Shown here: positions 12,068 to 29,354 of the stretch, piece after piece
Position numbering within the stretch: the first letter of the stretch is position 1
Layout: each line of letters begins with the position of its first letter
DNA from: Pseudomonadota bacterium
GTDB taxonomy: Bacteria > Pseudomonadota > Alphaproteobacteria > Rhodobacterales > Rhodobacteraceae
Length of the DNA stretch: 64,000 bases
NCBI GenBank assembly: GCA_038532285.1
Contig: JBCBAV010000002.1
Span: 2,679-66,678, forward strand
Direction of reading: 5' to 3'
The notes under the pieces: generated by a model
Seen by the model: only the letters and a program-made list of their open reading frames with translations
The model's database searches: none
What the model was told of the DNA's origin: nothing
Made by a program: the position numbers and the translations under genes

Positions 12068-12896
12068 TGGCGGGCGCGGGGCGGAGGGTTTCGAGGAGCG
12101 CGCCCTGCGGCGTCGTGGGGGCGATGCCGAGGTCGGCCATGATGCGCCAGTAGAGCGCGATGTCGTGGCCGATGACGGGTTTGCCCAGCCGCGCCTCGAG
12201 ATCGCGGGCCAGGTGCAGGGGGCGTTGTGGCAGTCCGCCCGGGCCGGTGCGGAAGTTGCACATGCCGTTGATGAGGTACGCGTCGGCGTGCGGGGCCTGT
12301 TCGGCGACATAGTCGAAGCTGCGCTGTGCCAGATCGCCGTCGAAGATCCAGCGGCGGGCGTTGACCGCGTCCTGATCGGGGAACCAGCCCTGATCGACGA
12401 AATTGCCGGCCCAGAGGACGTCGAAGCCAGCCTCGCGCAGGAAGGCTGCGGTGCCCTGCCACCAGTCGGGCCAGTGGTAGGCGGCGTTGAGGGCCAGTTT
12501 TTCGACGCCCAAGGCGCGCAGGGCCTCGACCATGGCGTAGCCGGCCATGTGGAACCGGGTTTGGTATTTGTCCGAAAGGTCGGCGCAGTGCTGGCGGATC
12601 CCCTCGACGCCGAGGCCGCTGGCGTGGACCCAGTTGGAGCCGACCTGTCCGCACACGTCGACGCCGTTGCGGGACATGTTGTGGACGAAATCCTCCATCA
12701 TGCCGAAATTGGCGCGGCGCTGGTCGAGGCCGTGGGCGTAGTCGGGGACGTGCAGCATCCAGCCGTGCACGCCGACGGTGTCGGGGCACATGCGCAAAAA
12801 GTCCGAAGGGCCGGCGTCGTAGTCGAAGGGCGGACAGGTGAAGCCGACCTGATGCGGGAAGAGCTTGTGTTCGGGGTGCCAGTCGCGGGGCATCAT
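12060..12896 (-). CDS. Asp/Glu/hydantoin racemase superfamily protein (maleate isomerase / arylmalonate decarboxylase-like)
   Basis: Start MMPRDW... at 12896 overlaps the Rieske gene stop (12893-12895). 278 aa with two candidate catalytic Cys contexts (GVDVCGQVGSN and INGMCNFR). Confidence 0.55.
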   Translation of the reverse strand: MMPRDWHPEHKLFPHQVGFTCPPFDYDAGPSDFLRMCPDTVGVHGWMLHVPDYAHGLDQRRANFGMMEDFVHNMSRNGVDVCGQVGSNWVHASGLGVEGIRQHCADLSDKYQTRFHMAGYAMVEALRALGVEKLALNAAYHWPDWWQGTAAFLREAGFDVLWAGNFVDQGWFPDQDAVNARRWIFDGDLAQRSFDYVAEQAPHADAYLINGMCNFRTGPGGLPQRPLHLARDLEARLGKPVIGHDIALYWRIMADLGIAPTTPQGALLETLRPAPANE

Positions 12897-13972
12897 GGTC
12901 CGTCGATCCCGTCGCGCATCCATCGCTGCAGGTGCATGACGGGGTGTTCGGAGTTCACGCCGCCGTTGGGGTCGACGACCAGCGGGCCCGGGACATAGCC
13001 GCGGGAGTTGAGGCCGCGCTGGACGCTTTCGACGAGGTGGATGTCTTCTTCGACCGTGGTGTCGCGGTCCTGGCGGGCGAGTGTGCGGATTTTGGGGTCG
13101 TCCACGCCATGAGCGGTGTACCAGCCGCGCCAGACCACCACGTGGGAGGCGTCGACCACGCGCCAGTGGTAGGTGTTGAGCACGTTGCCGGGGTAGACCT
13201 GGAACGAGAACATGGGCCAGAGGAACCAGCTGGAATATTCGTCGAAGTGATCGAAGCCCGAGTGGATGTCGTAGGTCATGTCCTCGAGGCTTTGGCATTC
13301 GGTGGTGTGGCGCAGGCAGTGTCCCTGGGGCTGGATGTCGTAGGTTTCGGGTTTGACCACGCCGCTGGCAAAGGTCGGGTGGCAGAGCGCGCAGTGGTAG
13401 CATTCGGAGTAGTTTTCGACCGAGACTTTCCAGTTGCAGCGTTCGGGGATGTCGACCCATTCGAGGGGTCTCAGATCGGCCCAGTTGGGCACCCATTCGG
13501 CCAGTTCGGCGCGGGCGTCGGGGAACCAGTCGTCCATGGGGGCGGCATCCGGGTCGAGGTTCACGAAGAGGAAGCCGAGGAATTCTTCGGAGCGGACTTC
13601 GGTGAGGCAGATGGTGGATTTGTCGAAACCTTCGACCGCCTTGATGTTGGGGCCTGCGCGCAGTTGGCCGGTCAGCTCGTAGGTCCAGGCGTGGTAGGGG
13701 CAGACGACCACCCGTGTGGTCCCTGCCCCGCTGACCAGCTGGTGCGCGCGGTGCTGGCAGACGTTGTAGAACACGCGGATCACATCGTCGCGACCACGGA
13801 TGGCGAACAGGCTTTCGCCCGCGATGTCGAAGGTGGTGTAGGCGCCTGGTTCGGCCAGGTCCGAGACGTGGCAGCCAAACTGCCAGGTTTTGGCCAGAAG
13901 GCCCTGTTTTTCAACCTCGAACACTTGGCTGTCGGTGTAGTAGCGCGCGGGCAACGAGCGGATGGGCGCCAT
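12893..13972 (-). CDS. Rieske [2Fe-2S] non-heme-iron oxygenase, alpha-subunit type (GbcA/Stc2-like N-demethylase class)
   Basis: Start MAPIRSLPARYYTD... at 13972. Rieske motif CQHRAHQL-x-CPYHAW. Mononuclear iron motif ENYSECYHCALCH. 359 aa. Confidence 0.8.
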   Translation of the reverse strand: MAPIRSLPARYYTDSQVFEVEKQGLLAKTWQFGCHVSDLAEPGAYTTFDIAGESLFAIRGRDDVIRVFYNVCQHRAHQLVSGAGTTRVVVCPYHAWTYELTGQLRAGPNIKAVEGFDKSTICLTEVRSEEFLGFLFVNLDPDAAPMDDWFPDARAELAEWVPNWADLRPLEWVDIPERCNWKVSVENYSECYHCALCHPTFASGVVKPETYDIQPQGHCLRHTTECQSLEDMTYDIHSGFDHFDEYSSWFLWPMFSFQVYPGNVLNTYHWRVVDASHVVVWRGWYTAHGVDDPKIRTLARQDRDTTVEEDIHLVESVQRGLNSRGYVPGPLVVDPNGGVNSEHPVMHLQRWMRDGIDGP

Positions 13973-13973
13973 G

Positions 13974-14858
13974 TCAGGGGTCCTGATGGTAGAGGCCAAG
14001 CTGGTGGCGGCGTTTGTGGAAGGTGGCGACGCGGTCGGGGATTTCGTCGCTGGCGACGGCCACGACGAAGGACAAAAGGGTCTCCAACAGTGCGATGATG
14101 CTGACCGAGGATGGAAAGAACTGCGGCGTGTCAACGGACACGGTAAAGCCGTGGGCGACGTTGTGCAGGATCGGGCTGGCGAGGCTGTCGGACAGCGACA
14201 CGATGGTCAGGCCCTGTTCGCGGGCAATCTGCACGGCTTCGACCACCTCGGCCCGGTAGGGCTTGCAGGTGATGGCGATCAGCACGTCGCGCCCGTCGGC
14301 CCACGCGAGATCATCCACCGGGGTGGAGCCTGCGCGCGGGATGGCGTGGATCTGTTTCATGCCGGTGGAGGCGAGATAGGTGAAGTTGCGGGCGTTGGAA
14401 TTGTTGATGCCCACGCCCAGCACAAAGACATTGCGGGCGTTCCAGATCGCGATAGCTGCGGCTTCGAGCGCGTCGGGGGTGACGCTGGCAAAGGTTTCCT
14501 CGACATTGCGAAGCGTGTCGCTGACCATGTCGGCAAAGAGGCCACCCAGATCACCCGATTTGCGGATGTCCTGCAGCCAGCGGGCGCGGTCGGGAAAGTC
14601 GGTCTCGCCCCGGCGGATGGCGTCGCGGAAGGGGGTGCGGAAATCCTCGTACCCGTCAAAGCCCACCTGGCGGGCCATGCGCACCACGGTGTTGGGTTTC
14701 ACGCCCGAGGCCTGCGCAATCTCGCGCACGGTCGACACGCCCACGTCGCGCGGGTTTTCCAGCACGTAGGCCGCGGCCTTGCGCGCCTCGGGCGTGAGGG
14801 CGGGCAGTTCGGCAGCGAGCCGTTCGAGAATCGCGTCTGATACATTTGTCCCATTCAT
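13974..14858 (-). CDS. MurR/RpiR family transcriptional regulator (HTH + SIS domain)
   Basis: 294 aa with an N-terminal HTH (AAAYVLENPRDVGVSTVREIAQASGVKPNTVVRMARQVGFDGY) and a C-terminal SIS fold. The stop lies 1 nt before the Rieske start. Divergent from the gene at 14924. Confidence 0.85.
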   Translation of the reverse strand: MNGTNVSDAILERLAAELPALTPEARKAAAYVLENPRDVGVSTVREIAQASGVKPNTVVRMARQVGFDGYEDFRTPFRDAIRRGETDFPDRARWLQDIRKSGDLGGLFADMVSDTLRNVEETFASVTPDALEAAAIAIWNARNVFVLGVGINNSNARNFTYLASTGMKQIHAIPRAGSTPVDDLAWADGRDVLIAITCKPYRAEVVEAVQIAREQGLTIVSLSDSLASPILHNVAHGFTVSVDTPQFFPSSVSIIALLETLLSFVVAVASDEIPDRVATFHKRRHQLGLYHQDP

Positions 14859-14923
14859 GATTGACGATGGTATTTTTGTCCGCTTAGCCTGTCGAGTGAA
14901 AAACGACTCGAAGGAGTGGCCTG

Positions 14924-17512
14924 ATGTCGGATCTTCCCAGCCATGCGCGTGTGGTGATTGTAGGTGGTGGCGTCATGGGGGTTGGCCTGGCCTATCACCT
15001 GGGTCACGAGGGGTGGGGGCCGGAGACGGTTCTGCTGGAAAAGGCGGAGCTGACCAGCGGCAGCACCTGGCACGCGGCGGGGCAGATCACGCATTCCACG
15101 TCCAGCTTTGGCTTGGGCAAGTGCGTGGACTACAACATTGATCTTTATAGCCGTTTGCTGGAGGCCGAGACCGGGCAGCCGGTGACATGGCACGGCTGCG
15201 GGTCGTTCCGGCTGGCCTATACGACGGACGAAATGGACTGGCTGCGGCACACGCTGTCGGTGGGCCGCGCGCTGGGGTTCAATATCGAGCTGGTGGGGCC
15301 CGAGCAGGTCGCGACGCTGCATCCGTTTTACAACCTTGATGGCGTGTTGGGCGCGCTGCATACGCCCGACGATGGGCACGTGGACCCGACCAATGTGACC
15401 ATGGCGATGGCGGCGGGCGCGCGCCAGAAAGGCGTGCGGATCGTGCGGCAGTGCCGGGCGACAAACATCACGCAGCTGCCCAGTGGCGAGTGGCAGGTCG
15501 AGACCGAGCGCGGCACGATCACCTGCGAACACGTGGTGAATGCGGGCGGCACCTATGCAAGGCAGATGGGCGAATGGTCGGGGCTGCAACTGCCCATGAC
15601 GTCGATGACGCACCATTATTTCGTGACCGAGCCGGTGCCGGAATTTGCCGATCTGGAGACCGAGTTGCCGGTGATCCGGGATGATCGCAAAGTCTCGGGC
15701 TACATCCGGATGGAGCAGAAGCGCGGGCTGATCGGGATTTACGAGAAGGAGAACCCGAACTCCGTCTGGCACGACCATTGCCCGTGGGACTACGAAAACT
15801 GGCTGTTTGACGCGGATTACGACCGGGTGATGCCGTATCTGGAGGAAAGCCTGAACCGGATGCCGATCTTTGCCGAGTTGGGCATTCAGCGCGAGGTGCA
15901 TGGCGCCATTTCGCATCCGCCCGATGGCAACCCGCTGATTGGCCCGGCGCCCGGTGTGCGCAATTACTGGTGCTGTTGCGGCACGCAGATCGGGATTGGG
16001 TGGGGCCCGGGGTTGAGCCGCGAGTTGGCGCGGTGGATGGTGCACGGGGCGGCGGATATCTCGATGCGCGAGTATGACCCGCGCCGGTTTGGGGCCTATG
16101 CCACCAAGGACTGGCAGGTGGTGAAGGCGGAAGAGGATTATTGCCTGCGCCACGAGATCCCGTTTCCGCATTTCAACCGGCTGGCGGGGCGGCCGATCAA
16201 GCCGTCGCCGCTGCACGATGTGCTGGCGGCGAAGGGCGCGGTGCATGAGGAAGTCTACGGCTTCGAGCGGCCGCGGTTCTTTGCGCGCGGGATAGACCAG
16301 CGGGATCACTACGGGTTCAACCGGACGCCGGTGGACGAGATGGTGGCGCAGGAGGTGGCTGCCGTACGGGAACGTGTGGGGATCATCGACGTCACTGCCT
16401 TCACCAAGGTGCTGGTCGAGGGGCCGGATGCCTATGCCCTGCTCGACCGGCTGACGGCGAACCGGATGCCGCAAAAGGTGGGGTCGATCACGCTGACGCA
16501 CATGCTGAACCGGCGGGGGCGGATCGAGGTGGAGACGACGATCGTGAACCTTGGCCCCGCCCCGGCCTCCGCCCCGGCCCCCGAGCCGGGGCCTCGCAGC
16601 CAAGAGGCCCCGGATCAAGTCCGGGGCGGGCTCCCGGGTCAAGTCCGGGGCGGGCTCCCGGGTCAAGCCCGGGGCGGGCTCCCGGATCAGGTCCGGGGCG
16701 GGCGGTACTACCTCGTCTGTGCGGCGTTTTTCGAACAGCGGCTCTTGGATCATCTCGCGCAGCATCGCGATGGCGCGGATGTGACGGTGACCGCGGTGTC
16801 CGAGGCCTGGTCGGCGCTGGCTATCAACGGGCCAAGGGCGCGGGATGTGCTGGGGGCGTGTACCGCGGCGAACCTGTCCAATGCCGGGTTCCGCTGGCTG
16901 TTGGCGCAGGAGATTGACGTCGCGGGGCACCGCATCTGGGCGATGCGGATGTCGTATGCGGGCGAGTTGGGGTGGGAGTTGCACATGCCCAACGCCGCCT
17001 GCCGCGATGTCTATGATGCGCTGTGGGCTGCGGGTGTTCCGCATGGAATTGCCGACTACGGCAGCTTTGCCATGAACGCGCTGCGCATGGAAAAGGGGTT
17101 CAAGGGCGCAGGCGAGTTGACCAACGAGGTGACCCTGGCCGAGGCGGACGTGCTGCGCTTTGCCCGGCGGGACAAGGTGTTTTTGGGGTCCGACAAGACC
17201 TTCAACGAGGATGTGCCGTGGGTGTGTGCCTATCTCGAGATCACGCCCGATGGCGTGGCCGATGGCCATGGCGGCGAGGCGGTGATGATGGGCGGCGTGG
17301 TCGTGGGATCGACGGCGTCGGTGGCCTATGGGCCGAGCGTGGGCAAGATCCTTGCCTTTGCCTATGTCACGCCTGACGCGGCTGTGCCCGGCACGGCGCT
17401 GGAGGTCGTGATCCACGGGGTGCCGCGGGCGGCGCGTGTGCTGGGCGAGCCGGCCTATGATCCGCAGAGCCTGCTGCCGCGCACCGATGGCGCGCGGGAG
17501 GCGGCGGAATGA
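14924..17512 (+). CDS. FAD-dependent oxidoreductase fused to a GcvT-type aminomethyltransferase domain (dimethylglycine/sarcosine dehydrogenase family), carrying an in-frame repeat insertion
   Basis: 862 aa. N-terminal VVIVGGGVMGVGLAYHL dinucleotide fold. The C-terminal half has GcvT-like segments (GIIDVTAFTKVLVEG, YAGELGWELH). See the repeat at 16609-16704. Confidence 0.85.
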   Translation: MSDLPSHARVVIVGGGVMGVGLAYHLGHEGWGPETVLLEKAELTSGSTWHAAGQITHSTSSFGLGKCVDYNIDLYSRLLEAETGQPVTWHGCGSFRLAYTTDEMDWLRHTLSVGRALGFNIELVGPEQVATLHPFYNLDGVLGALHTPDDGHVDPTNVTMAMAAGARQKGVRIVRQCRATNITQLPSGEWQVETERGTITCEHVVNAGGTYARQMGEWSGLQLPMTSMTHHYFVTEPVPEFADLETELPVIRDDRKVSGYIRMEQKRGLIGIYEKENPNSVWHDHCPWDYENWLFDADYDRVMPYLEESLNRMPIFAELGIQREVHGAISHPPDGNPLIGPAPGVRNYWCCCGTQIGIGWGPGLSRELARWMVHGAADISMREYDPRRFGAYATKDWQVVKAEEDYCLRHEIPFPHFNRLAGRPIKPSPLHDVLAAKGAVHEEVYGFERPRFFARGIDQRDHYGFNRTPVDEMVAQEVAAVRERVGIIDVTAFTKVLVEGPDAYALLDRLTANRMPQKVGSITLTHMLNRRGRIEVETTIVNLGPAPASAPAPEPGPRSQEAPDQVRGGLPGQVRGGLPGQARGGLPDQVRGGRYYLVCAAFFEQRLLDHLAQHRDGADVTVTAVSEAWSALAINGPRARDVLGACTAANLSNAGFRWLLAQEIDVAGHRIWAMRMSYAGELGWELHMPNAACRDVYDALWAAGVPHGIADYGSFAMNALRMEKGFKGAGELTNEVTLAEADVLRFARRDKVFLGSDKTFNEDVPWVCAYLEITPDGVADGHGGEAVMMGGVVVGSTASVAYGPSVGKILAFAYVTPDAAVPGTALEVVIHGVPRAARVLGEPAYDPQSLLPRTDGAREAAE
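16609..16704 (+). repeat. 4 x 24-bp tandem repeat inside the coding sequence (unit cccggRtcaRgYccggggcgggcK)
   Basis: Units at 16609, 16633, 16657 and 16681 translate as PDQVRGGL/PGQVRGGL/PGQARGGL/PDQVRGG. Each unit contains a ccgg..N..ccgg inverted repeat. Same family as the 23-bp array at 27926-28017. Confidence 0.9.
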
Positions 17513-18591
17513 GCATTCCCGAGACGATGCGCGCGATGGTGACGGTGGGGCACGGGGGGCTGGACCAGATGGTCTGGCACGAAGATTGGCCGGTGCCGGT
17601 GCCTGCGGCGGGCGAGGTGTTGATCCGCGTGGGCGCGTGCGGGTTGAACAACACGGACGTGAACACGCGGTCGGGCTGGTACTCCAAGGCGGTGACCGCG
17701 CCCACCACCGGCGACGGGTTCGCCACGGTAAGCGAAGAGGACCCGACATGGGGGGCCGCGCCCATCGCGTTTCCGCGCATTCAGGGGGCGGATGTGTGCG
17801 GGGAGATCGTGGCGGTGGGCAGCGGTGTGGACGCCGCGCGCGTGGGCCAGCGGGTGATCACCGACAACTGGCTGCGCGATCCGGACGATCCCGGTGACAT
17901 GACCAAGACGGGCTATTTCGGGTCCGAGCGGGATGGCGGCTTTGCCGAGTACACCACGATCCCCAGCGTGAACGCGGTGGCGATTTCTTCGCCGTTGAGT
18001 GACGCGGAGTTGGCGACGTTTTCGTGTTCGTATTCCACCGCCGAAGGGATGCTGACCCGCGCGGCGGTGACCGGGGCCGATACCGTGCTGGTCACGGGCG
18101 CGTCGGGTGGCGTTGGCGGGGCGCTGGTGCAACTGGCCAAGCGGCGTGGGGCGCGGGTGATTGCGATGGCGTCGGAGGTCAAGCACGCCGATGTGGCGGC
18201 GTTTGGGCCTGACAGGATGCTGCCGCGTGCACCGGACGATCTGCGCGCCGCTTTGGGCGATGAGAAGGTCACCGTGGTTGCCGACATCGTCGGCGGGCCC
18301 TACTGGCCGACGCTCATCGACGTGCTGGAACGCGGCGGGCGCTATACCTGTTCGGGGGCGATTGCCGGGCCGATGGTGGAGCTGGATTTGCGCACGTTTT
18401 ACCTGCGTGATCTGACCTTTACCGGGTCGACCGTGATCCCGCCGGAGGTAACGCGGAACCTTGTGGCTTACATCGAGGCGGGGGCTGTGCGCCCTGCCCT
18501 CGCCGCGACCTATCCGTTGAAGGACCTGCACGCCGCCCAGGCCGCGTTCATCGCCAAGGAACATACCGGCAATATCGTGGTGGTGCCGTGA
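17509..18591 (+). CDS. Zinc-type (MDR) alcohol dehydrogenase / quinone oxidoreductase family protein
   Basis: 360 aa. ATGA overlap with the upstream stop. GEVLIRVGACGLNNTD and VLVTGASGGVGGALVQLAK Rossmann segment. Confidence 0.8.
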   Translation: MSIPETMRAMVTVGHGGLDQMVWHEDWPVPVPAAGEVLIRVGACGLNNTDVNTRSGWYSKAVTAPTTGDGFATVSEEDPTWGAAPIAFPRIQGADVCGEIVAVGSGVDAARVGQRVITDNWLRDPDDPGDMTKTGYFGSERDGGFAEYTTIPSVNAVAISSPLSDAELATFSCSYSTAEGMLTRAAVTGADTVLVTGASGGVGGALVQLAKRRGARVIAMASEVKHADVAAFGPDRMLPRAPDDLRAALGDEKVTVVADIVGGPYWPTLIDVLERGGRYTCSGAIAGPMVELDLRTFYLRDLTFTGSTVIPPEVTRNLVAYIEAGAVRPALAATYPLKDLHAAQAAFIAKEHTGNIVVVP

Positions 18592-19190
18592 CACGGGCGG
18601 CCTTTCAGGCGCTCTATGATGCAGCGGGGCGGCTGGTGGCGGAGACCCCTGCCCTGCGCGATTTCGGGACGTGGCCCGCGATGCCTGCCTTTCGCAAGCG
18701 CAAGCCCACGGTCATCCCGGCGATACAGCTGATCACGGCGCGGCCCGATCCGCCGTTGTGTTCACCTGCGCAAAGTGCCTTTCTGGCGGCTTTGCGTGCC
18801 GCCGCCCCGTTTGCCCGGTGGTATCGCAGCTACACGCGCGCGCAGGTGGGGCGGGATTTTCTGGACCGCTATGGCTGGTTCGAACTGCTTGGCCCGTCGG
18901 GCCATTTCCGCAGCGACGCGGCGCGCGCCTATATCGCCTATTGGGGCGACGGGTTGGTGTACCCGGATCACGCGCACGCGGCGGAAGAGATCTACTATGT
19001 CGTGGCGGGCGGCGCAGATTTTGCCAGCGACGGGGTGCCGTCGGCGACGCTCGCCCCCGGAGACACGCGGCTGCACGGGGCGTGGCAGAGCCACGCGATG
19101 ACCACCACGACCAGCGATATCCTGACGCTGGTCCTGTGGCGGGGCGCGGGGCTGGCGGGCAAGCCGGTCATGCTGGAGGCGCGCCCGTGA
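18588..19190 (+). CDS. dddQ: DddQ-like cupin (annotated family: dimethylsulfoniopropionate lyase DddQ)
   Basis: 200 aa with GTG start in a GTGA overlap. RYGWFELLGPSGHF, YIAYWGDGLVYPDHAHAAEEIYYVVAGG and TRLHGAWQSHAM match my recollection of roseobacter DddQ, including the spacing of the H-x-H-x3-E-x-Y ... H metal ligands. Confidence 0.6.
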   Translation: MTRAAFQALYDAAGRLVAETPALRDFGTWPAMPAFRKRKPTVIPAIQLITARPDPPLCSPAQSAFLAALRAAAPFARWYRSYTRAQVGRDFLDRYGWFELLGPSGHFRSDAARAYIAYWGDGLVYPDHAHAAEEIYYVVAGGADFASDGVPSATLAPGDTRLHGAWQSHAMTTTTSDILTLVLWRGAGLAGKPVMLEARP

Positions 19191-20299
19191 AGATCACCCG
19201 CATCCGCATCTACCAGACCGGGCTGCCTTATGTGGGCGGGGCCTATGTCTGGGGCGCGGGCAATGCGATCGAGGTGGCACAGGCGAGCGTCGTGGTGATC
19301 GACACCGATGCGGGCCTGCAAGGCTGTGGTGAGTTCACGCCGTGCGGTGAGAATTACATGGTCGCCCATTCCGAGGGGGTCGCGGCGCTGGCGCGGCTGG
19401 TGGCCCCCAAGCTGATCGGGGCGGACCCGCGACAGGTGGGCATGATCGAGCAGATTTTGGACCACGCGGTGCAGGGCCACGGCTATGCCAAGGCGCCGTT
19501 TGATGCGGCGTGCTGGGACATTCTGGGCCAGGCGGTGGGCCAGCCGGTGTGGATGCTTCTGGGCGGCAAGCTGACCGATGGCGCGCCGATGTACCGGGTC
19601 GCGCCGCAGAAGGCGACCGATGAGACGCTGGCCGAAATGCAGCGCTATCGCGCGCAGGGTTACCGCCAGTTCCAGATCAAGGTGGGCGGCGATTGGCGCG
19701 GGGACATTGACCGCATTCATGCCGGTGTCGGCCTGTTGGAACGTGGTGAAAAGGCGATGGCGGATGCCAATCAGGGCTGGCGCGTGGATGACGCGATCCG
19801 GGTGGCGCGGGCGACCCGCGATCTGGATTACATCCTCGAACAGCCGTGCCGCACCTACGAGGAATGCCAGCAGGTGCGGCGGGTGGCCGAACAGCCGCTG
19901 AAGCTGGATGAGTGCCTGACCGGCATGGCCGCGGCGCAGCGCATCGTGGCGGACCGGGGGGCGGAGGTCTGTTGTCTGAAGCTGTCGAACCTCGGCGGGC
20001 TGACCAAGGCGCGGCGGGTGCGGGATTTTCTGGTGGAAAACCGCATTCCGGTGGTGGCGGAGGACACGTGGGGCGGTGAGATCACCACCGCCGCCGTGGC
20101 GCATTTTGCGGCCTCGACGCCCGCGGATTATCTGCAGAACACCACCGATCTGATGAACTACAACACCCGGTCGACCGGTATCGGCGGGCCCGAGGCGCGG
20201 GGTGGCAAGCTATACGCCAGTGATGCGCCCGGGTTGGGGGTTGCGCCGGATTTCGACAGCCTTGGCGCGCCGGTGGCAGCGTATGGAGGTGCGACATGA
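19187..20299 (+). CDS. Mandelate racemase/muconate lactonizing enzyme family protein (enolase superfamily), paralog 1
   Basis: Track ORF 18671..20299. The part upstream of 19187 overlaps dddQ in another frame, and the GTG at 19187 sits in a GTGA overlap. VKITRIRIY..., FQIKVGG, ADANQGW, LEQP, KLDE, CLKLSNLGG. Confidence 0.85.
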   Translation: MKITRIRIYQTGLPYVGGAYVWGAGNAIEVAQASVVVIDTDAGLQGCGEFTPCGENYMVAHSEGVAALARLVAPKLIGADPRQVGMIEQILDHAVQGHGYAKAPFDAACWDILGQAVGQPVWMLLGGKLTDGAPMYRVAPQKATDETLAEMQRYRAQGYRQFQIKVGGDWRGDIDRIHAGVGLLERGEKAMADANQGWRVDDAIRVARATRDLDYILEQPCRTYEECQQVRRVAEQPLKLDECLTGMAAAQRIVADRGAEVCCLKLSNLGGLTKARRVRDFLVENRIPVVAEDTWGGEITTAAVAHFAASTPADYLQNTTDLMNYNTRSTGIGGPEARGGKLYASDAPGLGVAPDFDSLGAPVAAYGGAT

Positions 20300-26954: not shown

Positions 26955-27860
26955 TCAGCCTTCCTCCTGGATCTGGCGGGCGAGGCGTGCGGCGCGGGCC
27001 TCTTGCAGGCGGGTGATGGCGAACATGGCCACGGTCAGGCCCAAAAGCAGCAGGAGCAGATAGTTCGACATGGCCGCCGCCACGCCCAGTTCGCGGAACT
27101 CGGTGGCGGTGCGGCTGATGCGCAGGGCGACGATCTCGGTGGAGAGACCCGGGCCGCCTTCGGTCATCACGAGGATCACCTCGAGCACCTTGAACGCGTC
27201 GATCAGGCGCAGCAGCGCGGTGACGATCAGCACGGGCATCATCAGCGGGATCTTGATGTGCCAGATCTGTTGCCAGGCGGTGGCCCCGTCGATGCGCGCG
27301 GCCTCGAGCGCGGATTGCGGCAGCGATTGCAGGGCGGCCAGCGCGAGGATGAAGATGAAGGGTGTCCATTGCCAGATGTCGGCGATGATGACGGACATCA
27401 GCGCGTGCTGGCCCAGCCAGTCCACGGTGGGCAGACCCAGACCATCGAGCATGCGGTTAAACGTGCCCACGGTGGGGTGATACATGTAGCGCCACATCAG
27501 GCCGACCACGACCGGCGCGATCATCATCGGCAGGATGAACAGCGTGCGGAGCACCGACATGCCGCGAATGTTGCGATCCAGCAGCAGCGCGAGGCCAACG
27601 CCAATCACCATCTCGGCGATCACCACGGTGGCGGCAAAGATCAGCGTGACGCTGAGGCTTTCGCGGAAGGCGGGATCGAACCAGAGGGTGACGTAATTCT
27701 TGAGCCCGACAAATTCGGTTTCCCCGATGGCCTGGCTGGGGTCCCAGTCGCGGAACGACCCGTAGATCATGTAGCCCAGCGGGTAGAGCAACGCGATGGC
27801 CATGATGATCGCAGCCGGGGCCATGAACATGTAGGGCGTGAAACGGTTGGTCAGATTCAT
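26955..27860 (-). CDS. Carbohydrate-type ABC transporter permease (MalF-like)
   Basis: 301 aa. EAA loop LEAARIDGATAWQQIWHIKIPL. Confidence 0.85.
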   Translation of the reverse strand: MNLTNRFTPYMFMAPAAIIMAIALLYPLGYMIYGSFRDWDPSQAIGETEFVGLKNYVTLWFDPAFRESLSVTLIFAATVVIAEMVIGVGLALLLDRNIRGMSVLRTLFILPMMIAPVVVGLMWRYMYHPTVGTFNRMLDGLGLPTVDWLGQHALMSVIIADIWQWTPFIFILALAALQSLPQSALEAARIDGATAWQQIWHIKIPLMMPVLIVTALLRLIDAFKVLEVILVMTEGGPGLSTEIVALRISRTATEFRELGVAAAMSNYLLLLLLGLTVAMFAITRLQEARAARLARQIQEEG

Positions 27861-27925
27861 GGGTCAGGTCCCAAGAGGTCCGCGGGGGACCGGGGCGCCT
27901 GAGCAGCGCCCCGGGGGAGGAGGTC

Positions 27926-28017
27926 CCGGATCAGGTCCGGGACAGGCGCCGGATCAGGTCCGGGACAGGCACCGGGTCAGGTCCGGGACAGGCACCGGGT
28001 CAAGCCCGAGGCCGGTG
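27926..28017 (+). repeat. 4 x 23-bp tandem hairpin repeat (unit ccggRtcaggtccgggacaggcR) between the SBP and permease genes
   Basis: Units at 27926, 27949, 27972 and 27995 (the last is degenerate). Preceded by the hairpin ggggcgc-ctgagca-gcgcccc at 27892-27912. Related to the 24-bp coding array at 16609-16704. Confidence 0.9.
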
Positions 28018-28022
28018 TGGCG

Positions 28023-29354
28023 TTACTGCCAGGTGTAGTATCCGGCTTCTTCCATCACGGCGCGGGTGCGTTCTGCGACGCCGTCAAGTGCCGTCTGGAT
28101 GTCCAGATCCTCGGTCAGGACCTTGGACATGGTCGTGCCGATGTCGGCGTTGATCTTGCCCCACACGGGGATGATCGGACGCCAGTCGGGGTCGGCGAAT
28201 TTCAGCGCCTCACCAAAGGTCGATGCGAAGGGATACTTTTCGTTCAACCCGGCATCCTGATAGGTCGAGAAGCGCGACGGGTTGCCGCCTTCCATGGCCA
28301 CCATCAGGTCACCCTTTTTCGAGGTCAGCCACTGCATCAGCAGGAACGCGGCCTCTTTGTTTTCGGCGTTCTTGGGGATGCCGATGCCAAAGCCGCCGGT
28401 CTGGCTGCCGCGGCGCACACCCTCGGGGTGCATGGCGTAGCCGACCTTGCCGACAACCTTGCTGCGGTCGGGGTTTTCGAACCCGGGCATGAAGGCGATG
28501 GAGTCCATGAACATGGCTGCGTCACCGTTGGCGAACGCGTTGGCGGCTTCGGCGGGGCCAAAGCTCATGGCGCCCTGTGGGCCGCAATCGACGATGGATT
28601 TCAGCGCTTGGGCGGCCTCGACGCCGGCGGCGTTGTTGATGATCGGGTTCCATGCGTCGTCAAAGACGCGACCGCCCAGCGGGGCGAGGTGCAACAGGAA
28701 CGCGTGGCTGGCCTGGTGACCGGAAGCCGCGCGGGATGCCATGCCGCCCATGCCCGGTTCGACCTCGGGGATCTTGCAGGCTGCATCGAGCAGTTGGTCA
28801 TAGTTTTCAGGCGTGGCAATGCCGTGCTTTTCAAAAATGTCCTTGCGATAGGCCAGGACGGATGTCTCGGACCCGAAGGGGATACCGAAAAGCGAGCCTG
28901 TGGGACCCGGCAGATACCCTTTGAACCCGCCTGCGACGCCGATGTTTTCGACGTAGCCGTCGATCAGGTCGCCTGCGTCATAGCTTGGGTCCGCCAGCTT
29001 GGGGTTCATGAAATACTTGGCGAGGTTTTCCAGCTGGTCGGCAAACACGTAGTCGGCCTTGGAAAACACCACATAGGCGATGAGGTCATATTCGCCCTCG
29101 TCCTGCGCCAGCTCAAGGGTCTGACGCTCGCGCATCTTGAGGTAGGGCAGCTGGTCCACCTCGACCTCGATGCCCGTCTCCTTGGTGAACTCTGGCAGCA
29201 CTTTCATGGCGGCGTTGTAATGCGGGTGCGCGGGGAAATTGACGATCAGCGTCGTGCCCGCGTATTCGGCATACGGCCCGCCATGCCCGTCGGCCAGCGC
29301 CGTTGTCGCGGCCATTGCCGTGACCAGCGCCGTGGTCTGAAGTGTCTTTAGCAT
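28023..29354 (-). CDS. ABC transporter substrate-binding protein, family 1 (sugar/polyol type)
   Basis: 443 aa with signal peptide MLKTLQTTALVTAMAATTALA. First gene of the transporter operon. Confidence 0.85.
   Translation of the reverse strand: MLKTLQTTALVTAMAATTALADGHGGPYAEYAGTTLIVNFPAHPHYNAAMKVLPEFTKETGIEVEVDQLPYLKMRERQTLELAQDEGEYDLIAYVVFSKADYVFADQLENLAKYFMNPKLADPSYDAGDLIDGYVENIGVAGGFKGYLPGPTGSLFGIPFGSETSVLAYRKDIFEKHGIATPENYDQLLDAACKIPEVEPGMGGMASRAASGHQASHAFLLHLAPLGGRVFDDAWNPIINNAAGVEAAQALKSIVDCGPQGAMSFGPAEAANAFANGDAAMFMDSIAFMPGFENPDRSKVVGKVGYAMHPEGVRRGSQTGGFGIGIPKNAENKEAAFLLMQWLTSKKGDLMVAMEGGNPSRFSTYQDAGLNEKYPFASTFGEALKFADPDWRPIIPVWGKINADIGTTMSKVLTEDLDIQTALDGVAERTRAVMEEAGYYTWQ

What the first reader, a model, noticed from the sequence alone, without database searches (positions are those of the whole stretch)
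16552..16706. Hairpin tandem-repeat element inserted in frame inside the DMGDH-like gene
Four exact-period 24-bp units occur at 16609, 16633, 16657 and 16681: cccggatcaagtccggggcgggct / cccgggtcaagtccggggcgggct / cccgggtcaagcccggggcgggct / cccggatcaggtccggggcgggcg. They are translated as PDQVRGGL-PGQVRGGL-PGQARGGL-PDQVRGG. A Pro/Ala-rich run (GPAPASAPAPEPGPRSQEA) precedes them. The insert lies between ...IEVETTIVNL and RYYLVCAAFF, which in GcvT-fold dehydrogenases is, to my knowledge, a short turn. The 862-codon ORF stays open. The same repeat family occurs in intergenic DNA at 27926-28017, where the period is 23 bp. The coding copy has a period divisible by three. This looks like a REP/MITE-like element that landed in, or expanded within, a gene and was tolerated as a surface loop of about 50 residues.
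Basis: partly seen in the sequence, partly recalled or inferred. Interest (0 to 1): 0.65.

Follow-up and report, generated by a model that had tools for sequence, protein, structure and literature searches.

The report
REP hairpin cluster inside an enzyme gene
A small selfish hairpin-repeat element (a REP cluster common in alphaproteobacteria) has landed in frame inside a dimethylglycine-dehydrogenase-like gene of a marine Roseobacter-group bacterium and is carried as a 47-residue floppy loop; this is real, but it is a new example of a published phenomenon, not a new kind of thing.

Summary
Four 24-nt hairpin units (16609-16704) follow a Pro/Ala-coding leader, inside an intact 862-codon DAO/GcvT gene. 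A related array lies at 27926-28017.

All 120 closest orthologues, including two with the same gene neighbourhood, lack the segment. They have a 5-residue turn (RMAED) where this protein has 52 residues, a net gain of 141 nt.

Independent metagenome assemblies carry the insert, so it is not an assembly artefact. One variant about 97% identical spans it completely and has a 12-nt in-frame deletion. Between strains, 30 of 38 flanking differences fall at third codon positions, so the gene is still under selection.

The element is a REP of the CGTC superfamily (Di Nocera 2013). The leader is an inverted partner REP, followed by a spacer and a tandemly amplified arm. The same composite lies in frame in DnaE, NrdJ, GlyS, IleS, CarB, an EF-G-like gene and Nnr of other Rhodobacterales.

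A 24-nt period is the commonest period found in the scan, not an adaptation to coding. Intragenic REPs, including clusters encoding 43-82 aa, are already published.

This is a new member of a known kind, of moderate interest.

The parts
14924..17512 (+). Host gene: an 862-aa FAD-dependent oxidoreductase of the DMGDH/GcvT family, substrate unknown, interrupted in frame by the element.
   Evidence: ORF. Pfam DAO 9-371, FAO_M 374-426, GCV_T (two stretches, second 593-742 = model positions 102-251) and GCV_T_C 771-846. Best solved relative is rat DMGDH 4pab, E=3e-142, with the alignment broken between query 546 and 609. No NCBIfam equivalog reaches its cut-off.
16547..16702 (+). The region that replaces the 5-codon turn (RMAED) of orthologues: codons N542-G593. 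Net gain is 47 codons, or 141 nt.
   Evidence: Protein alignment with 120 orthologues. DNA alignment with the empty sites L117 and L118. No target-site duplication is recognisable.
16557..16568 (+). A 12-nt slippage duplicate of the 5' half of the partner REP (ccgccccggcct beside ccgccccggccc). It is absent in a related strain.
   Evidence: TRF period-12 rows at 16553-16589. The contig of run X2 lacks 12 nt at 16557.
16569..16595 (+). Inverted partner REP, read head first: head CGCC, stem GCCCCGGC (16571-78) pairing with GCCGGGGC (16585-92), loop CCCCGA, tail CCTC. It is translated as part of APAPEPGP.
   Evidence: The same module precedes 31 of 48 unique Rhodobacterales-type arrays; the head is CGTC in 14 and CGCC in 14. 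It is shared with the Nnr insert in L078. It folds with unit 1 into a long hairpin, -47.8 kcal/mol over 64 nt.
16596..16603 (+). Spacer between the partner REP and the array.
   Evidence: Spacers in the family are 6-31 nt, most often 12-13.
16604..16704 (+). The amplified arm: tail GAGG followed by four head-to-tail 24-nt REP units (starting at 16609, 16633, 16657 and 16681). Each is a CCCGG(A/G)-TCAAG/TCAGG-(T/C)CCGGG hairpin plus GCGGGCT. They are translated as PDQVRGGL, PGQVRGGL, PGQARGGL and PDQVRGG.
   Evidence: The closing pair of the hairpin covaries between A-T and G-C across 360 family copies, 91% of them Watson-Crick.
27861..28022 (+). Second, intergenic composite of the same family. 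It has a leader hairpin (27890-27898 pairing with 27906-27914), then GGAGGAGGT, then three to four units of period 23 (27926-28017) with a GACAGGC tail, which is a TGTC head on the opposite strand.
28023..29354 (-). Solute-binding-protein gene of an ABC transporter. Its stop codon lies just beyond the last, degenerate unit of the intergenic array (36 nt from the last full core match).
   Evidence: Pfam SBP_bac_1, E=5e-43. Context.
26955..27860 (-). ABC transporter permease gene, downstream of the intergenic element in the same operon.
   Evidence: Pfam BPD_transp_1.

Best explanation
The segment is a composite REP (repetitive extragenic palindrome) element related to the CGTC-tagged superfamily that is typical of alphaproteobacteria. 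It consists of one REP hairpin in one orientation, a short spacer, and the inverted partner REP amplified head-to-tail into four 24-nt units. In other words, it is a REPIN-like tail-to-tail doublet with one arm expanded.

The element entered the codons for a beta-hairpin turn in the folate-binding (GcvT) domain of a DMGDH-family enzyme. The route of entry is unknown.

In this orientation the units have no stop codon in any frame, and the net gain is a multiple of three (141 nt). The ORF therefore survived, and the element is translated as a 47-residue Pro/Gly/Arg-rich, probably disordered loop.

The insert is best seen as selfish or neutral DNA that is tolerated, not as a functional module of the enzyme. 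Replication slippage later changes its length in frame.

What is shown: the identity of the element, the empty site in orthologues, presence in independent samples, continued purifying selection on the gene, and recurrence of the same composite in other genes.

What is inferred: that the loop is surface-exposed and harmless, that the protein is made with the loop, and how the element was inserted.
For: - Empty site. All 120 best homologues are 798-832 aa, nearly all 810-823. 119 of them have a 5-residue turn here and one has 5 further residues. The orthologues L117 and L118 share the same neighbours (Rieske oxygenase, SIS regulator, Zn-ADH) and have an empty site at DNA level.
- Dispersed family. 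The genome scan found at least 116 loci with tandem hairpins of this core. A large share come from Rhodobacteraceae/Paracoccaceae (about a third of the titles shown name that group), and most are intergenic, typically 15-40 nt past a stop codon.
- Composite architecture. The partner REP, four units and the end GGGGCGGGCGGT are shared with an insert in the Nnr gene of another genus. 31 of 48 arrays have the inverted partner.
- Recurrent in-frame insertions, confirmed by Pfam: NrdJ, DnaE, Nnr and GlyS; IleS, an EF-G-like gene and CarB. GlyS carries it at the same site in three genomes.
- Real hairpin. The closing pair is A-T in 241 copies, G-C in 88, A.C in 17 and G.T in 7.
- Not an artefact. 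Contigs of run X1 match both junctions exactly. A contig of run X2 spans 16279-17300 with 31 substitutions and a 12-nt in-frame deletion. Run X3, from another study, covers the left junction.
- Selection on the gene. 30 of the 38 listed strain differences outside the insert are at third codon positions (positions).
- Position in the protein. The insert lies between strands 534-545 and 593-600, and residues 549-591 have pLDDT 24-36. The alignment to rat DMGDH breaks at the same place.
- Literature. PMC3733652 describes CGTC REPs as mainly alphaproteobacterial and describes intragenic REPs in DnaE and tRNA synthetases, with clusters encoding 43-82 aa. Its supplement lists an S. alaskensis CGTC-1 REP in TruB translated as WTPDQVRGD, the same hairpin in the same frame.
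Against: - No target-site duplication or clean insertion boundary can be seen, and the five turn codons were replaced rather than simply split.
- No transposase was looked for or found, and the mobilising mechanism of CGTC-type REPs is unknown (PMC3733652, Table 1).
- The units in the coding copy carry CGCC, not the canonical CGTC head.
- The head-to-tail array arrangement is described as negligible or rare for published CGTC families.
- The structure model is poor overall (mean pLDDT 46.9), so surface exposure rests on alignment and local secondary structure only.
- No expression or protein data exist for this gene.
Confidence: 0.85

Rival explanations
1. The repeat arose on the spot by slippage or duplication of host coding sequence. 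On this view it is an ordinary intragenic tandem repeat, and its likeness to the intergenic array is coincidental.
For: Slippage does act here. There is a 12-nt duplicate in the leader that is missing in the X2 strain. CarB arrays have 2 or 3 units in related contigs.
Against: Orthologues have no seed sequence at the site. The same 24-nt unit, with the same partner REP and the same end, occurs in unrelated genes and in intergenic DNA of many genera. The units are translated in two or three different frames in different genes, so what is conserved is the DNA, not the peptide.
Confidence: 0.03
2. The insert is kept because it does something. It might act as a flexible loop with a role in the enzyme (partner binding, localisation). 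It might instead act as an RNA or DNA structure inside the gene that tunes translation, mRNA stability or replication.
For: - The insert has persisted across strains that differ by 3-4% in sequence, always in frame.
- Hairpin pairing is conserved by covariation across the family.
- Intragenic copies show an orientation bias opposite to intergenic ones: 7 sense to 1 antisense, against 5 to 16, Fisher p=0.003. This suggests orientation-dependent selection at the RNA or DNA level.
- Hits recur in replication and translation genes (PMC3733652).
Against: - All orthologues at 80-84% identity work without it.
- The peptide is low-complexity and predicted to be disordered.
- The peptide differs by reading frame between host genes, so no common protein function is plausible.
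- Persistence over 3-4% divergence is also expected for a neutral insertion.
- The orientation statistic rests on small numbers and on heuristic gene calls.
Confidence: 0.08
3. The gene is a pseudogene in decay or an assembly chimera, and the open frame is fortuitous.
For: High-GC DNA often keeps long ORFs open by chance. For example, the 964-aa antisense shadow ORF at 14855-17749.
Against: The codon-position GC pattern is that of a real gene on both sides of the insert. 30 of 38 strain differences are at third positions. All four Pfam domains are complete. Three independent metagenome runs from two studies carry the junctions.
Confidence: 0.02
4. The hairpins are tRNA-like (T-arm-like) modules or members of another structured-RNA family, not REPs.
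For: A CCCGG stem with the 7-nt loop ATCAAGT resembles a T-arm (TTCAAGT). There is a weak tRNA-Sec hit of 19.7 bits.
Against: ARAGORN finds no tRNA. All Rfam hits are far below their gathering scores, here 19.7 against 47. With the A-T closing pair, which covaries, the loop is 5 nt, as in published CGTC REPs.
Confidence: 0.02

Closest known systems
CGTC-tagged REPs, family CGTC-1 (Di Nocera et al. 2013, BMC Genomics 14:522, PMC3733652)
   Same: - Short GC-rich hairpin with a 5-nt loop.
- Predominantly alphaproteobacterial.
- Mostly located just downstream of genes, between unidirectional or convergent ORFs.
- No known transposase.
- Occasional in-frame intragenic copies in DnaE, tRNA synthetases and TruB.
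- The published S. alaskensis TruB insert WTPDQVRGD encodes the same hairpin in the same frame. Sister variants found here (Thioalkalivibrio, Binatia, sphingomonads) read CGTC-ACCCCGGA-CTTGA-TCCGGGGT-CCA on the opposite strand, which is the canonical layout.
   Different: - In the Rhodobacterales variant the head is CGTC, CGCC, TGCC or TGTC. In this window it is CGCC in the coding copy and TGTC in the intergenic copy.
- The tail is CCTC, not CCA.
- The units are arranged as a tail-to-tail doublet with one arm amplified head-to-tail 2-7 times. The paper reports head-to-head dimers as predominant, head-to-tail dimers as negligible and clusters as rare.
- Rhodobacterales genera (Rhodobacter, Paracoccus, Ruegeria, Roseobacter, Jannaschia, Dinoroseobacter) are not mentioned in the paper's main text.
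Rickettsia palindromic elements (RPE; Ogata et al. 2000; RPE-4 and RPE-6 are classed as CGTC REPs in PMC3733652)
   Same: Palindromic selfish DNA inserted in frame into conserved protein-coding genes, keeping the ORF open and adding a peptide segment. Hosts are alphaproteobacteria.
   Different: RPEs occur in obligate intracellular, AT-rich, reduced genomes. This case is in a free-living, 62% GC marine Roseobacter-group bacterium. The insert here is a cluster of five hairpins, not a single RPE unit, and no sequence comparison with RPEs was made.
REPINs mobilised by RAYT transposases (Bertels and Rainey 2011, PMC3116915; Nunvar et al. 2010, PMC2817692)
   Same: Two inverted REPs separated by a short spacer, able to fold into one long hairpin, and dispersed through the genome.
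   Different: REPINs carry GTAG heads and have a cognate single-copy RAYT gene. Here the head is of the CGTC type, no RAYT was sought or found, and one arm is tandemly amplified.
BIMEs / REP clusters in E. coli operons (e.g. malE-malF)
   Same: The window's second copy lies between the binding-protein gene and the permease gene of an ABC transporter operon. This is the classical position where REPs stabilise the upstream mRNA (established knowledge; context).
   Different: BIMEs alternate REP orientation and bind IHF, gyrase or Pol I. None of this was tested here, and the units are unrelated in sequence to E. coli REPs.

Membership tests
CGTC-tagged REP superfamily (PMC3733652) | Short (20-40 bp) GC-rich palindromic unit, multi-copy, mostly extragenic and close to the 3' ends of genes. 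| tested here: met
   24-nt units. At least 116 loci in species-representative genomes and 64 in metagenomes. Most lie between unidirectional or convergent genes, 15-40 nt past a stop codon.
CGTC-tagged REP superfamily (PMC3733652) | An unpaired CGTC tetranucleotide at one end (TGTC and CCTC are accepted variants). | tested here: inconclusive
   Window coding units and their partner carry CGCC. The window's intergenic units carry TGTC. Across the family, partner REPs carry CGTC in 14 of 31 and CGCC in 14 of 31. Sister variants in other clades carry CGTC.
CGTC-tagged REP superfamily (PMC3733652) | Stem of 8-9 bp and loop of 4-5 nt. | tested here: met
   Unit 1 has the stem GCCCCGGA/TCCGGGGC (8 bp) and the loop TCAAG (5 nt). 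Internal units have 6 bp plus a G.U pair. The partner REP has an 8-bp stem but a 6-nt loop.
CGTC-tagged REP superfamily (PMC3733652) | A short unpaired tail fitting CCA. | tested here: not met
   The tail is CCTC (GAGG on the array strand) in Rhodobacterales-type elements. Sister variants elsewhere do have TCCA.
CGTC-tagged REP superfamily (PMC3733652) | Head-to-head dimers predominant; head-to-tail dimers negligible; clusters rare. | tested here: not met
   The arrangement is a tail-to-tail doublet plus head-to-tail arrays of 2-7 units.
CGTC-tagged REP superfamily (PMC3733652) | Sequence identity of the hairpin with a published member. | tested here: met
   The supplement lists the S. alaskensis CGTC-1 REP in TruB, encoded peptide WTPDQVRGD. 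This is consistent with TGG ACC CCG GAT CAG GTC CGG GGT GAC (a back-translation; the DNA itself is not given there), the same core and frame as PDQVRGG here.
REPIN-RAYT system | Two inverted REPs with a short spacer that can form one long hairpin. | tested here: met
   31 of 48 arrays have the inverted partner 6-31 nt upstream. The window's partner plus unit 1 fold at -47.8 kcal/mol.
REPIN-RAYT system | A cognate RAYT (Y1 HUH transposase) gene flanked by the REPs in the same genome. | not tested
   No complete source genome was available, and the window's ORFs were not screened for Y1_Tnp. PMC3733652 (Table 1) reports no transposase association for CGTC REPs.
REPIN-RAYT system | A GTAG-type head recognised by RAYT. 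| tested here: not met
   Heads are CGTC, CGCC, TGCC or TGTC.
Rickettsia palindromic elements (RPE) | Palindromic element inserted in frame in conserved protein genes with the ORF preserved. | tested here: met
   The window gene and seven other genes.
Rickettsia palindromic elements (RPE) | Sequence homology to RPE-1 through RPE-8 consensus sequences. | not tested
Only the paper's classification of RPE-4 and RPE-6 as CGTC REPs is known.
MITE | Terminal inverted repeats plus a target-site duplication. | tested here: not met
   The partner and the array units are inverted relative to each other. However, no target-site duplication is visible at the junctions when compared with the empty sites.

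The most novel reading that the evidence does not exclude
The Rhodobacterales form could be a distinct, currently or recently active composite element: a tail-to-tail REP doublet with a tandemly amplified arm. On this reading its insertion or retention depends on orientation. It sits antisense to transcription when intergenic but sense when inside genes, and it repeatedly ends up in replication and translation genes (DnaE, NrdJ, GlyS, IleS, EF-G-like, CarB). That would point to a mobilisation or selection mechanism tied to transcription or replication of highly expressed genes. It would also give a free-living, culturable analogue of the Rickettsia RPE phenomenon in which that mechanism, still unknown for CGTC-type REPs, could be studied.
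Probability: 0.25. Interest if true: 0.55.

Novelty: new member of a known kind. Interest (0 to 1): 0.4.

Why it matters
The case adds a well-documented example of selfish hairpin DNA being absorbed into a working enzyme as an extra loop. The evidence includes an empty site in orthologues with the same gene neighbourhood, independent samples, an in-frame length polymorphism and continued purifying selection.

It extends the published intragenic-REP phenomenon to the marine Roseobacter/Rhodobacter group, and it shows a composite architecture there that the 2013 catalogue did not describe.

In practice, such inserts inflate protein lengths, split domain matches and create spurious repeat peptides in annotation. 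They also mark permissive surface sites in conserved enzymes.

How CGTC-type REPs move remains open. Culturable Rhodobacterales with several intragenic copies would be a convenient system in which to find out.

Tried and rejected
- Known RNA families. Rfam at permissive thresholds gave only sub-threshold noise on both sites. ARAGORN found no tRNA. The T-arm resemblance was dropped.
- Exact-sequence literature search for six forms of the core: no paper holds any of them.
- Source organism. The window's own protein is not in the protein collection and none of the fetched loci is the source genome. The best homologues are 84% identical Roseobacter-group proteins.
- Target-site duplication or clean boundaries: none found against the empty sites.
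- Period divisible by three as an adaptation to coding. This was rejected. Among Rhodobacterales-type arrays, 24 nt is about six times commoner than 23 nt, so finding only period 24 in 8 intragenic cases is not significant.
- Structure model. It had low confidence overall (pLDDT 46.9, shallow alignment), so only local secondary structure and pLDDT were used. No fold search was run.
- RNA evidence. Only one RNA run holds 4% of the words, so it was not usable.
- Many ORFs that seemed to span arrays proved to be shadow ORFs, or the array lay outside the real gene, upstream of the start or at the C-terminal end (L014, L016, L019, L030, L098, L106, L141 and others). They were not counted as intragenic.
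- Which strand is structural. A.C intermediates (17) outnumber G.T (7), which hints at the opposite strand. This is not significant and the copies are not independent.
- A contig joint in run X1 from 16482 to 16706 (223 nt skipped, only a 23-nt anchor) was considered as an empty allele. It is out of frame and too weakly supported, so it remains unexplained.
Full report
**1. The observation**

Tandem Repeats Finder reports an array at 16609-16703 with period 24, 4.0 copies, 92% matches and score 162. It reports a second array at 27926-28002 with period 23 and 3.3 copies.

The hairpin core CCGGRTCARGYCCGG occurs eight times in the 64-kb window against 0.13 expected from shuffles. All eight are on the + strand and only at these two sites. 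A wider scan for CCCGG-N5-8-CCGGG hairpins finds nothing else of this kind in the window.

The 862-codon ORF 14924-17512 is open. It has the full DAO, FAO_M, GCV_T and GCV_T_C domain set of the dimethylglycine-dehydrogenase family. The GCV_T match is split, resuming at residue 593. The best solved relative is rat DMGDH (4pab, E=3e-142), and that alignment breaks between query residues 546 and 609.

**2. The segment is an insertion**

A search of the large protein collection gave 7,928 homologues. The 120 best are Roseobacter-group Rhodobacteraceae at 80-84% identity, and all are 798-832 aa long. In a joint alignment, 119 of them have TTIVRMA-ED-RFYLVCAAFF where this protein has TTIVNLG-[47 extra residues]-RYYLVCAAFF; the remaining one has five further residues.

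Two of these orthologues were fetched with their DNA (L117, L118). They have the same neighbours as the window gene: a Rieske oxygenase and a SIS regulator upstream on the other strand, and a Zn-alcohol dehydrogenase downstream. They are therefore true orthologues.

At DNA level their site reads GTG|CGG ATG GCG GAG GAC|CAG TTC. The window has GTG AAC CTT GGC ... GGG CGG TAC, a net gain of 141 nt. No target-site duplication is recognisable.

**3. It is not an artefact, and the gene is alive**

Five marine metagenome runs hold near-identical sequence. Laying their contigs on the gene gave three results:
- Run X1 matches both junctions exactly (16298-16630 and 16632-17300). The unitigs break only inside the repeat.
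- Run X2 has one 1,230-nt contig spanning 16279-17300. It has 31 substitutions and a single 12-nt in-frame deletion at 16557.
- Run X3, from a different study, covers the left junction at 96% identity.

Word depth rises three- to six-fold over the repeat, and many different flanks join it, as expected for a dispersed repeat. Of the 38 listed substitutions outside the insert, 30 fall at third codon positions. This was computed from the positions against the frame. The gene is therefore under purifying selection in strains that carry the insert.

**4. What the element is**

Many are from Rhodobacteraceae/Paracoccaceae (Rhodobacter calidifons, Roseovarius, Marinovum, Tabrizicola, Defluviimonas, Albidovulum and several MAGs). 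Others come from Acetobacteraceae, Bradyrhizobium, sphingomonads, Thioalkalivibrio, Binatia and Thermaceae.

*Period.* The spacing between units is 24 nt in 63 cases, 23 in 48, 25 in 17 and 22 in 6. Period-11 hits are unrelated simple repeats.

*Conservation of the hairpin.* The stem and loop are conserved, while the flanking tail differs by clade. It is GCRGGCT in Rhodobacterales and GTGACG or ATGACG elsewhere. On the opposite strand the latter reads CGTC-ACCCCGGA-CTTGA-TCCGGGGT-CCA.

*Pairing.* Across 360 copies the loop-closing pair is A-T in 241, G-C in 88, A.C in 17 and G.T in 7. That is 91% Watson-Crick with covariation, so the hairpin is a conserved structure.

*RNA families.* No Rfam family and no tRNA model fits.

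**5. The Pro/Ala leader is part of the element**

The leader aligns with the sequence upstream of an array in the Nnr gene of Rhodobacteraceae HLUCCA08. That array also has four units and the same GGGGCGGGCGGT end.

I inspected the 75 nt upstream of the 48 unique arrays that begin with GAGRYC. In 31 of them an inverted REP lies 6-31 nt upstream, most often 12-13 nt. It reads C-CG(T/C)C-CCGG-loop-CCGG-GRC-CTC. The head is the canonical CGTC in 14 and CGCC in 14.

The element is therefore a tail-to-tail REP doublet, REPIN-like, whose second arm is amplified head-to-tail. In the window its parts are:
- partner REP 16569-16595: head CGCC, 8-bp stem, loop CCCCGA, tail CCTC;
- spacer 16596-16603;
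- array 16604-16704.

The partner and unit 1 fold together at -47.8 kcal/mol over 64 nt. Positions 16557-16568 are a 12-nt duplicate of the partner's 5' half. This is exactly the piece missing in the X2 strain.

**6. Genomic context of the family**

I called genes with a codon-position GC test. Most arrays lie between unidirectional or convergent genes, typically 15-40 nt past a stop codon, and few lie between divergent genes. This is the published REP pattern.

The window's second copy lies between the solute-binding-protein gene and the permease gene of an ABC transporter operon. This is the classical position of REPs such as the one at malE-malF.

**7. The same composite sits in frame in other housekeeping genes**

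Candidates were found from spanning ORFs that have a true coding signature on both flanks. They were then confirmed by Pfam:

| Host gene | Locus (organism) | Encoded peptide | Orientation |
|---|---|---|---|
| Class II ribonucleotide reductase (NrdJ) | L040 | ...EAPDQVRGWLPDQVRGG... | sense |
| DnaE, inside the HHH_6 domain | L041 | | sense |
| Nnr/YjeF, inside Carb_kinase | L078 (also L165) | | sense |
| GlyS beta, same site in three genomes | L089 (Defluviimonas denitrificans DSM 18921), L105, L162 | | sense |
| IleS | L130 | | sense |
| EF-G-family GTPase | L140 | | sense |
| CarB | L152, L166, L173 | PGLTREPA, 2 units in one contig and 3 in another | antisense |

The units are translated in different frames in different hosts (PDQVRGGL, PGSGPGRA/PGSSPGQA, PGLTREPA). 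What is conserved is therefore the DNA, not a peptide.

All confirmed intragenic arrays have period 24. But 24 nt is also about six times commoner than 23 nt among intergenic Rhodobacterales-type arrays, so this is not evidence of adaptation to coding.

*An orientation effect.* Seven of the eight host genes carry the array in the sense orientation, which has no stop codon in any frame. The opposite orientation has TGA in one frame. Rhodobacterales-type arrays between co-directional genes show the reverse pattern, 16 antisense and 5 sense (Fisher p=0.003). The numbers are small and the gene calls are heuristic, so I report this as a lead only.

**8. Where the insert sits in the protein**

The AlphaFold model is poor overall (mean pLDDT 46.9, from a shallow alignment). 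Locally it shows strands 534-545 and 593-600 (pLDDT about 60-74) flanking a coil at 549-591 with pLDDT 24-36.

The orthologues have a five-residue turn here, and the alignment with the solved rat enzyme breaks at the same place. Together these support an insertion at a beta-hairpin turn of the folate-binding domain. Surface exposure and harmlessness are inferred, not measured.

**9. Comparison with what is known**

Di Nocera et al. 2013 (PMC3733652) sorted REPs into GTAG- and CGTC-tagged superfamilies. According to that paper:
- CGTC REPs are mainly alphaproteobacterial.
- They have 8-9-bp stems, 4-5-nt loops and CCA tails.
- They form mostly head-to-head dimers.
- They show no transposase association.
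- They lie mostly downstream of genes.

The paper also reports intragenic REPs, many in replication and repair genes, in tRNA synthetases and in TruB. REP clusters encoding 43-82 aa are reported in Thauera and R. conorii, and RPE-4 and RPE-6 of Rickettsia are classed as CGTC REPs.

Its supplement lists an S. alaskensis CGTC-1 REP in TruB translated as WTPDQVRGD, which is the same hairpin and frame as here. It also lists a REP dimer in the GlyS beta subunit of E. litoralis.

The paper's main text does not mention Rhodobacterales genera. No paper in the library holds the core sequence.

The Rhodobacterales form differs from the described CGTC families in three ways:
- the head is degenerate (CGTC, CGCC, TGCC or TGTC);
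- the tail is CCTC;
- the units are organised as a tail-to-tail doublet plus a head-to-tail array.

**10. Verdict**

The thing is a REP cluster of the CGTC kind inserted in frame at a turn of a DMGDH-family enzyme. It is tolerated as a 47-residue, probably disordered loop, and slippage is changing its length in frame.

This is a new member of a known kind. The phenomenon of intragenic REPs, of the RPE type, has been published since 2000 and 2013.

Three things are new here: the extension to free-living marine Rhodobacterales, the composite architecture, and the list of eight host genes with a possible orientation rule.

Noticed in passing
window 27861-28022: A second composite of the same REP family (leader hairpin plus 3-4 units of period 23, TGTC head). 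It lies between the solute-binding-protein gene and the permease gene of an ABC transporter operon, in the orientation antisense to transcription. This is the classical REP position for differential mRNA stability within an operon.
   Followed up: partly
L152:3082-3120 and L166:292-354 (metagenome contigs VFQQ010008922 and VFQR01000208): CarB genes of closely related contigs carry the array in the opposite orientation (PGLTREPA), with 2 units in one and 3 in the other. This is an in-frame copy-number polymorphism inside an essential gene.
   Followed up: partly
L089:2073-2111, L105:5249-5287, L162:4721-4762 (+ strand locus coordinates): GlyS beta subunit genes of three Rhodobacterales genomes, including Defluviimonas denitrificans DSM 18921, carry the composite at the same site. 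Di Nocera et al. list a REP dimer in E. litoralis GlyS beta as well. The cause is either an old inherited insertion or a hot spot.
   Followed up: partly
Family-wide: Intragenic arrays are in the sense orientation in 7 of 8 host genes. Arrays between co-directional genes are antisense in 16 of 21 cases (Fisher p=0.003). All six intragenic composites with a recognisable partner have partner loops without TGA (CCNCCGAG, GCTCGAC, TCCCCGAA), whereas about half of all partners have loops that contain TGA.
   Followed up: partly
L010 (CP059262.1, labelled MAG: Exiguobacterium profundum SSD5 chromosome, 4.26 Mb): This record carries a Rhodobacter-type composite whose flank is nearly identical to Rhodobacter calidifons L034. 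It is probably mislabelled or misbinned.
   Followed up: no
window 12893-20299: The gene cluster is conserved in the orthologous loci L117 and L118: a GbcA-like Rieske oxygenase (12893-14134, -), a SIS/RpiR-type regulator (13974-14858, -), the DMGDH-like gene, a Zn-ADH/quinone-reductase-like gene (17509-18591), a 200-aa protein with no family hit (18588-19190) and an MR_MLE-type enzyme. It looks like a catabolic cluster for an N-methylated amine or betaine. No NCBIfam equivalog reaches its cut-off.
   Followed up: partly
window 14855-17749 (-): A 964-aa ORF antisense to the DMGDH-like gene. It has the codon-position GC pattern of a shadow ORF (high GC at position 1, not position 3) and is not a gene.
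   Followed up: yes
window 16482/16706 (run X1): One low-depth contig joins 16482 directly to 16706, skipping 223 nt (not a multiple of three), with only a 23-nt anchor on one side. It is probably an alignment artefact of a short unitig and remains unexplained.
   Followed up: no
L119-L182, soil metagenome loci with leader AACCGGTATCCACC: A second large sub-family of the same 24-nt tandem hairpin, in contigs of about 60% GC from soil. It has a different leader (TCCACC, which gives a CCA-type tail on the opposite strand) and no GAGGCC. It probably belongs to other alphaproteobacteria and is closer to the canonical CGTC layout.
   Followed up: no
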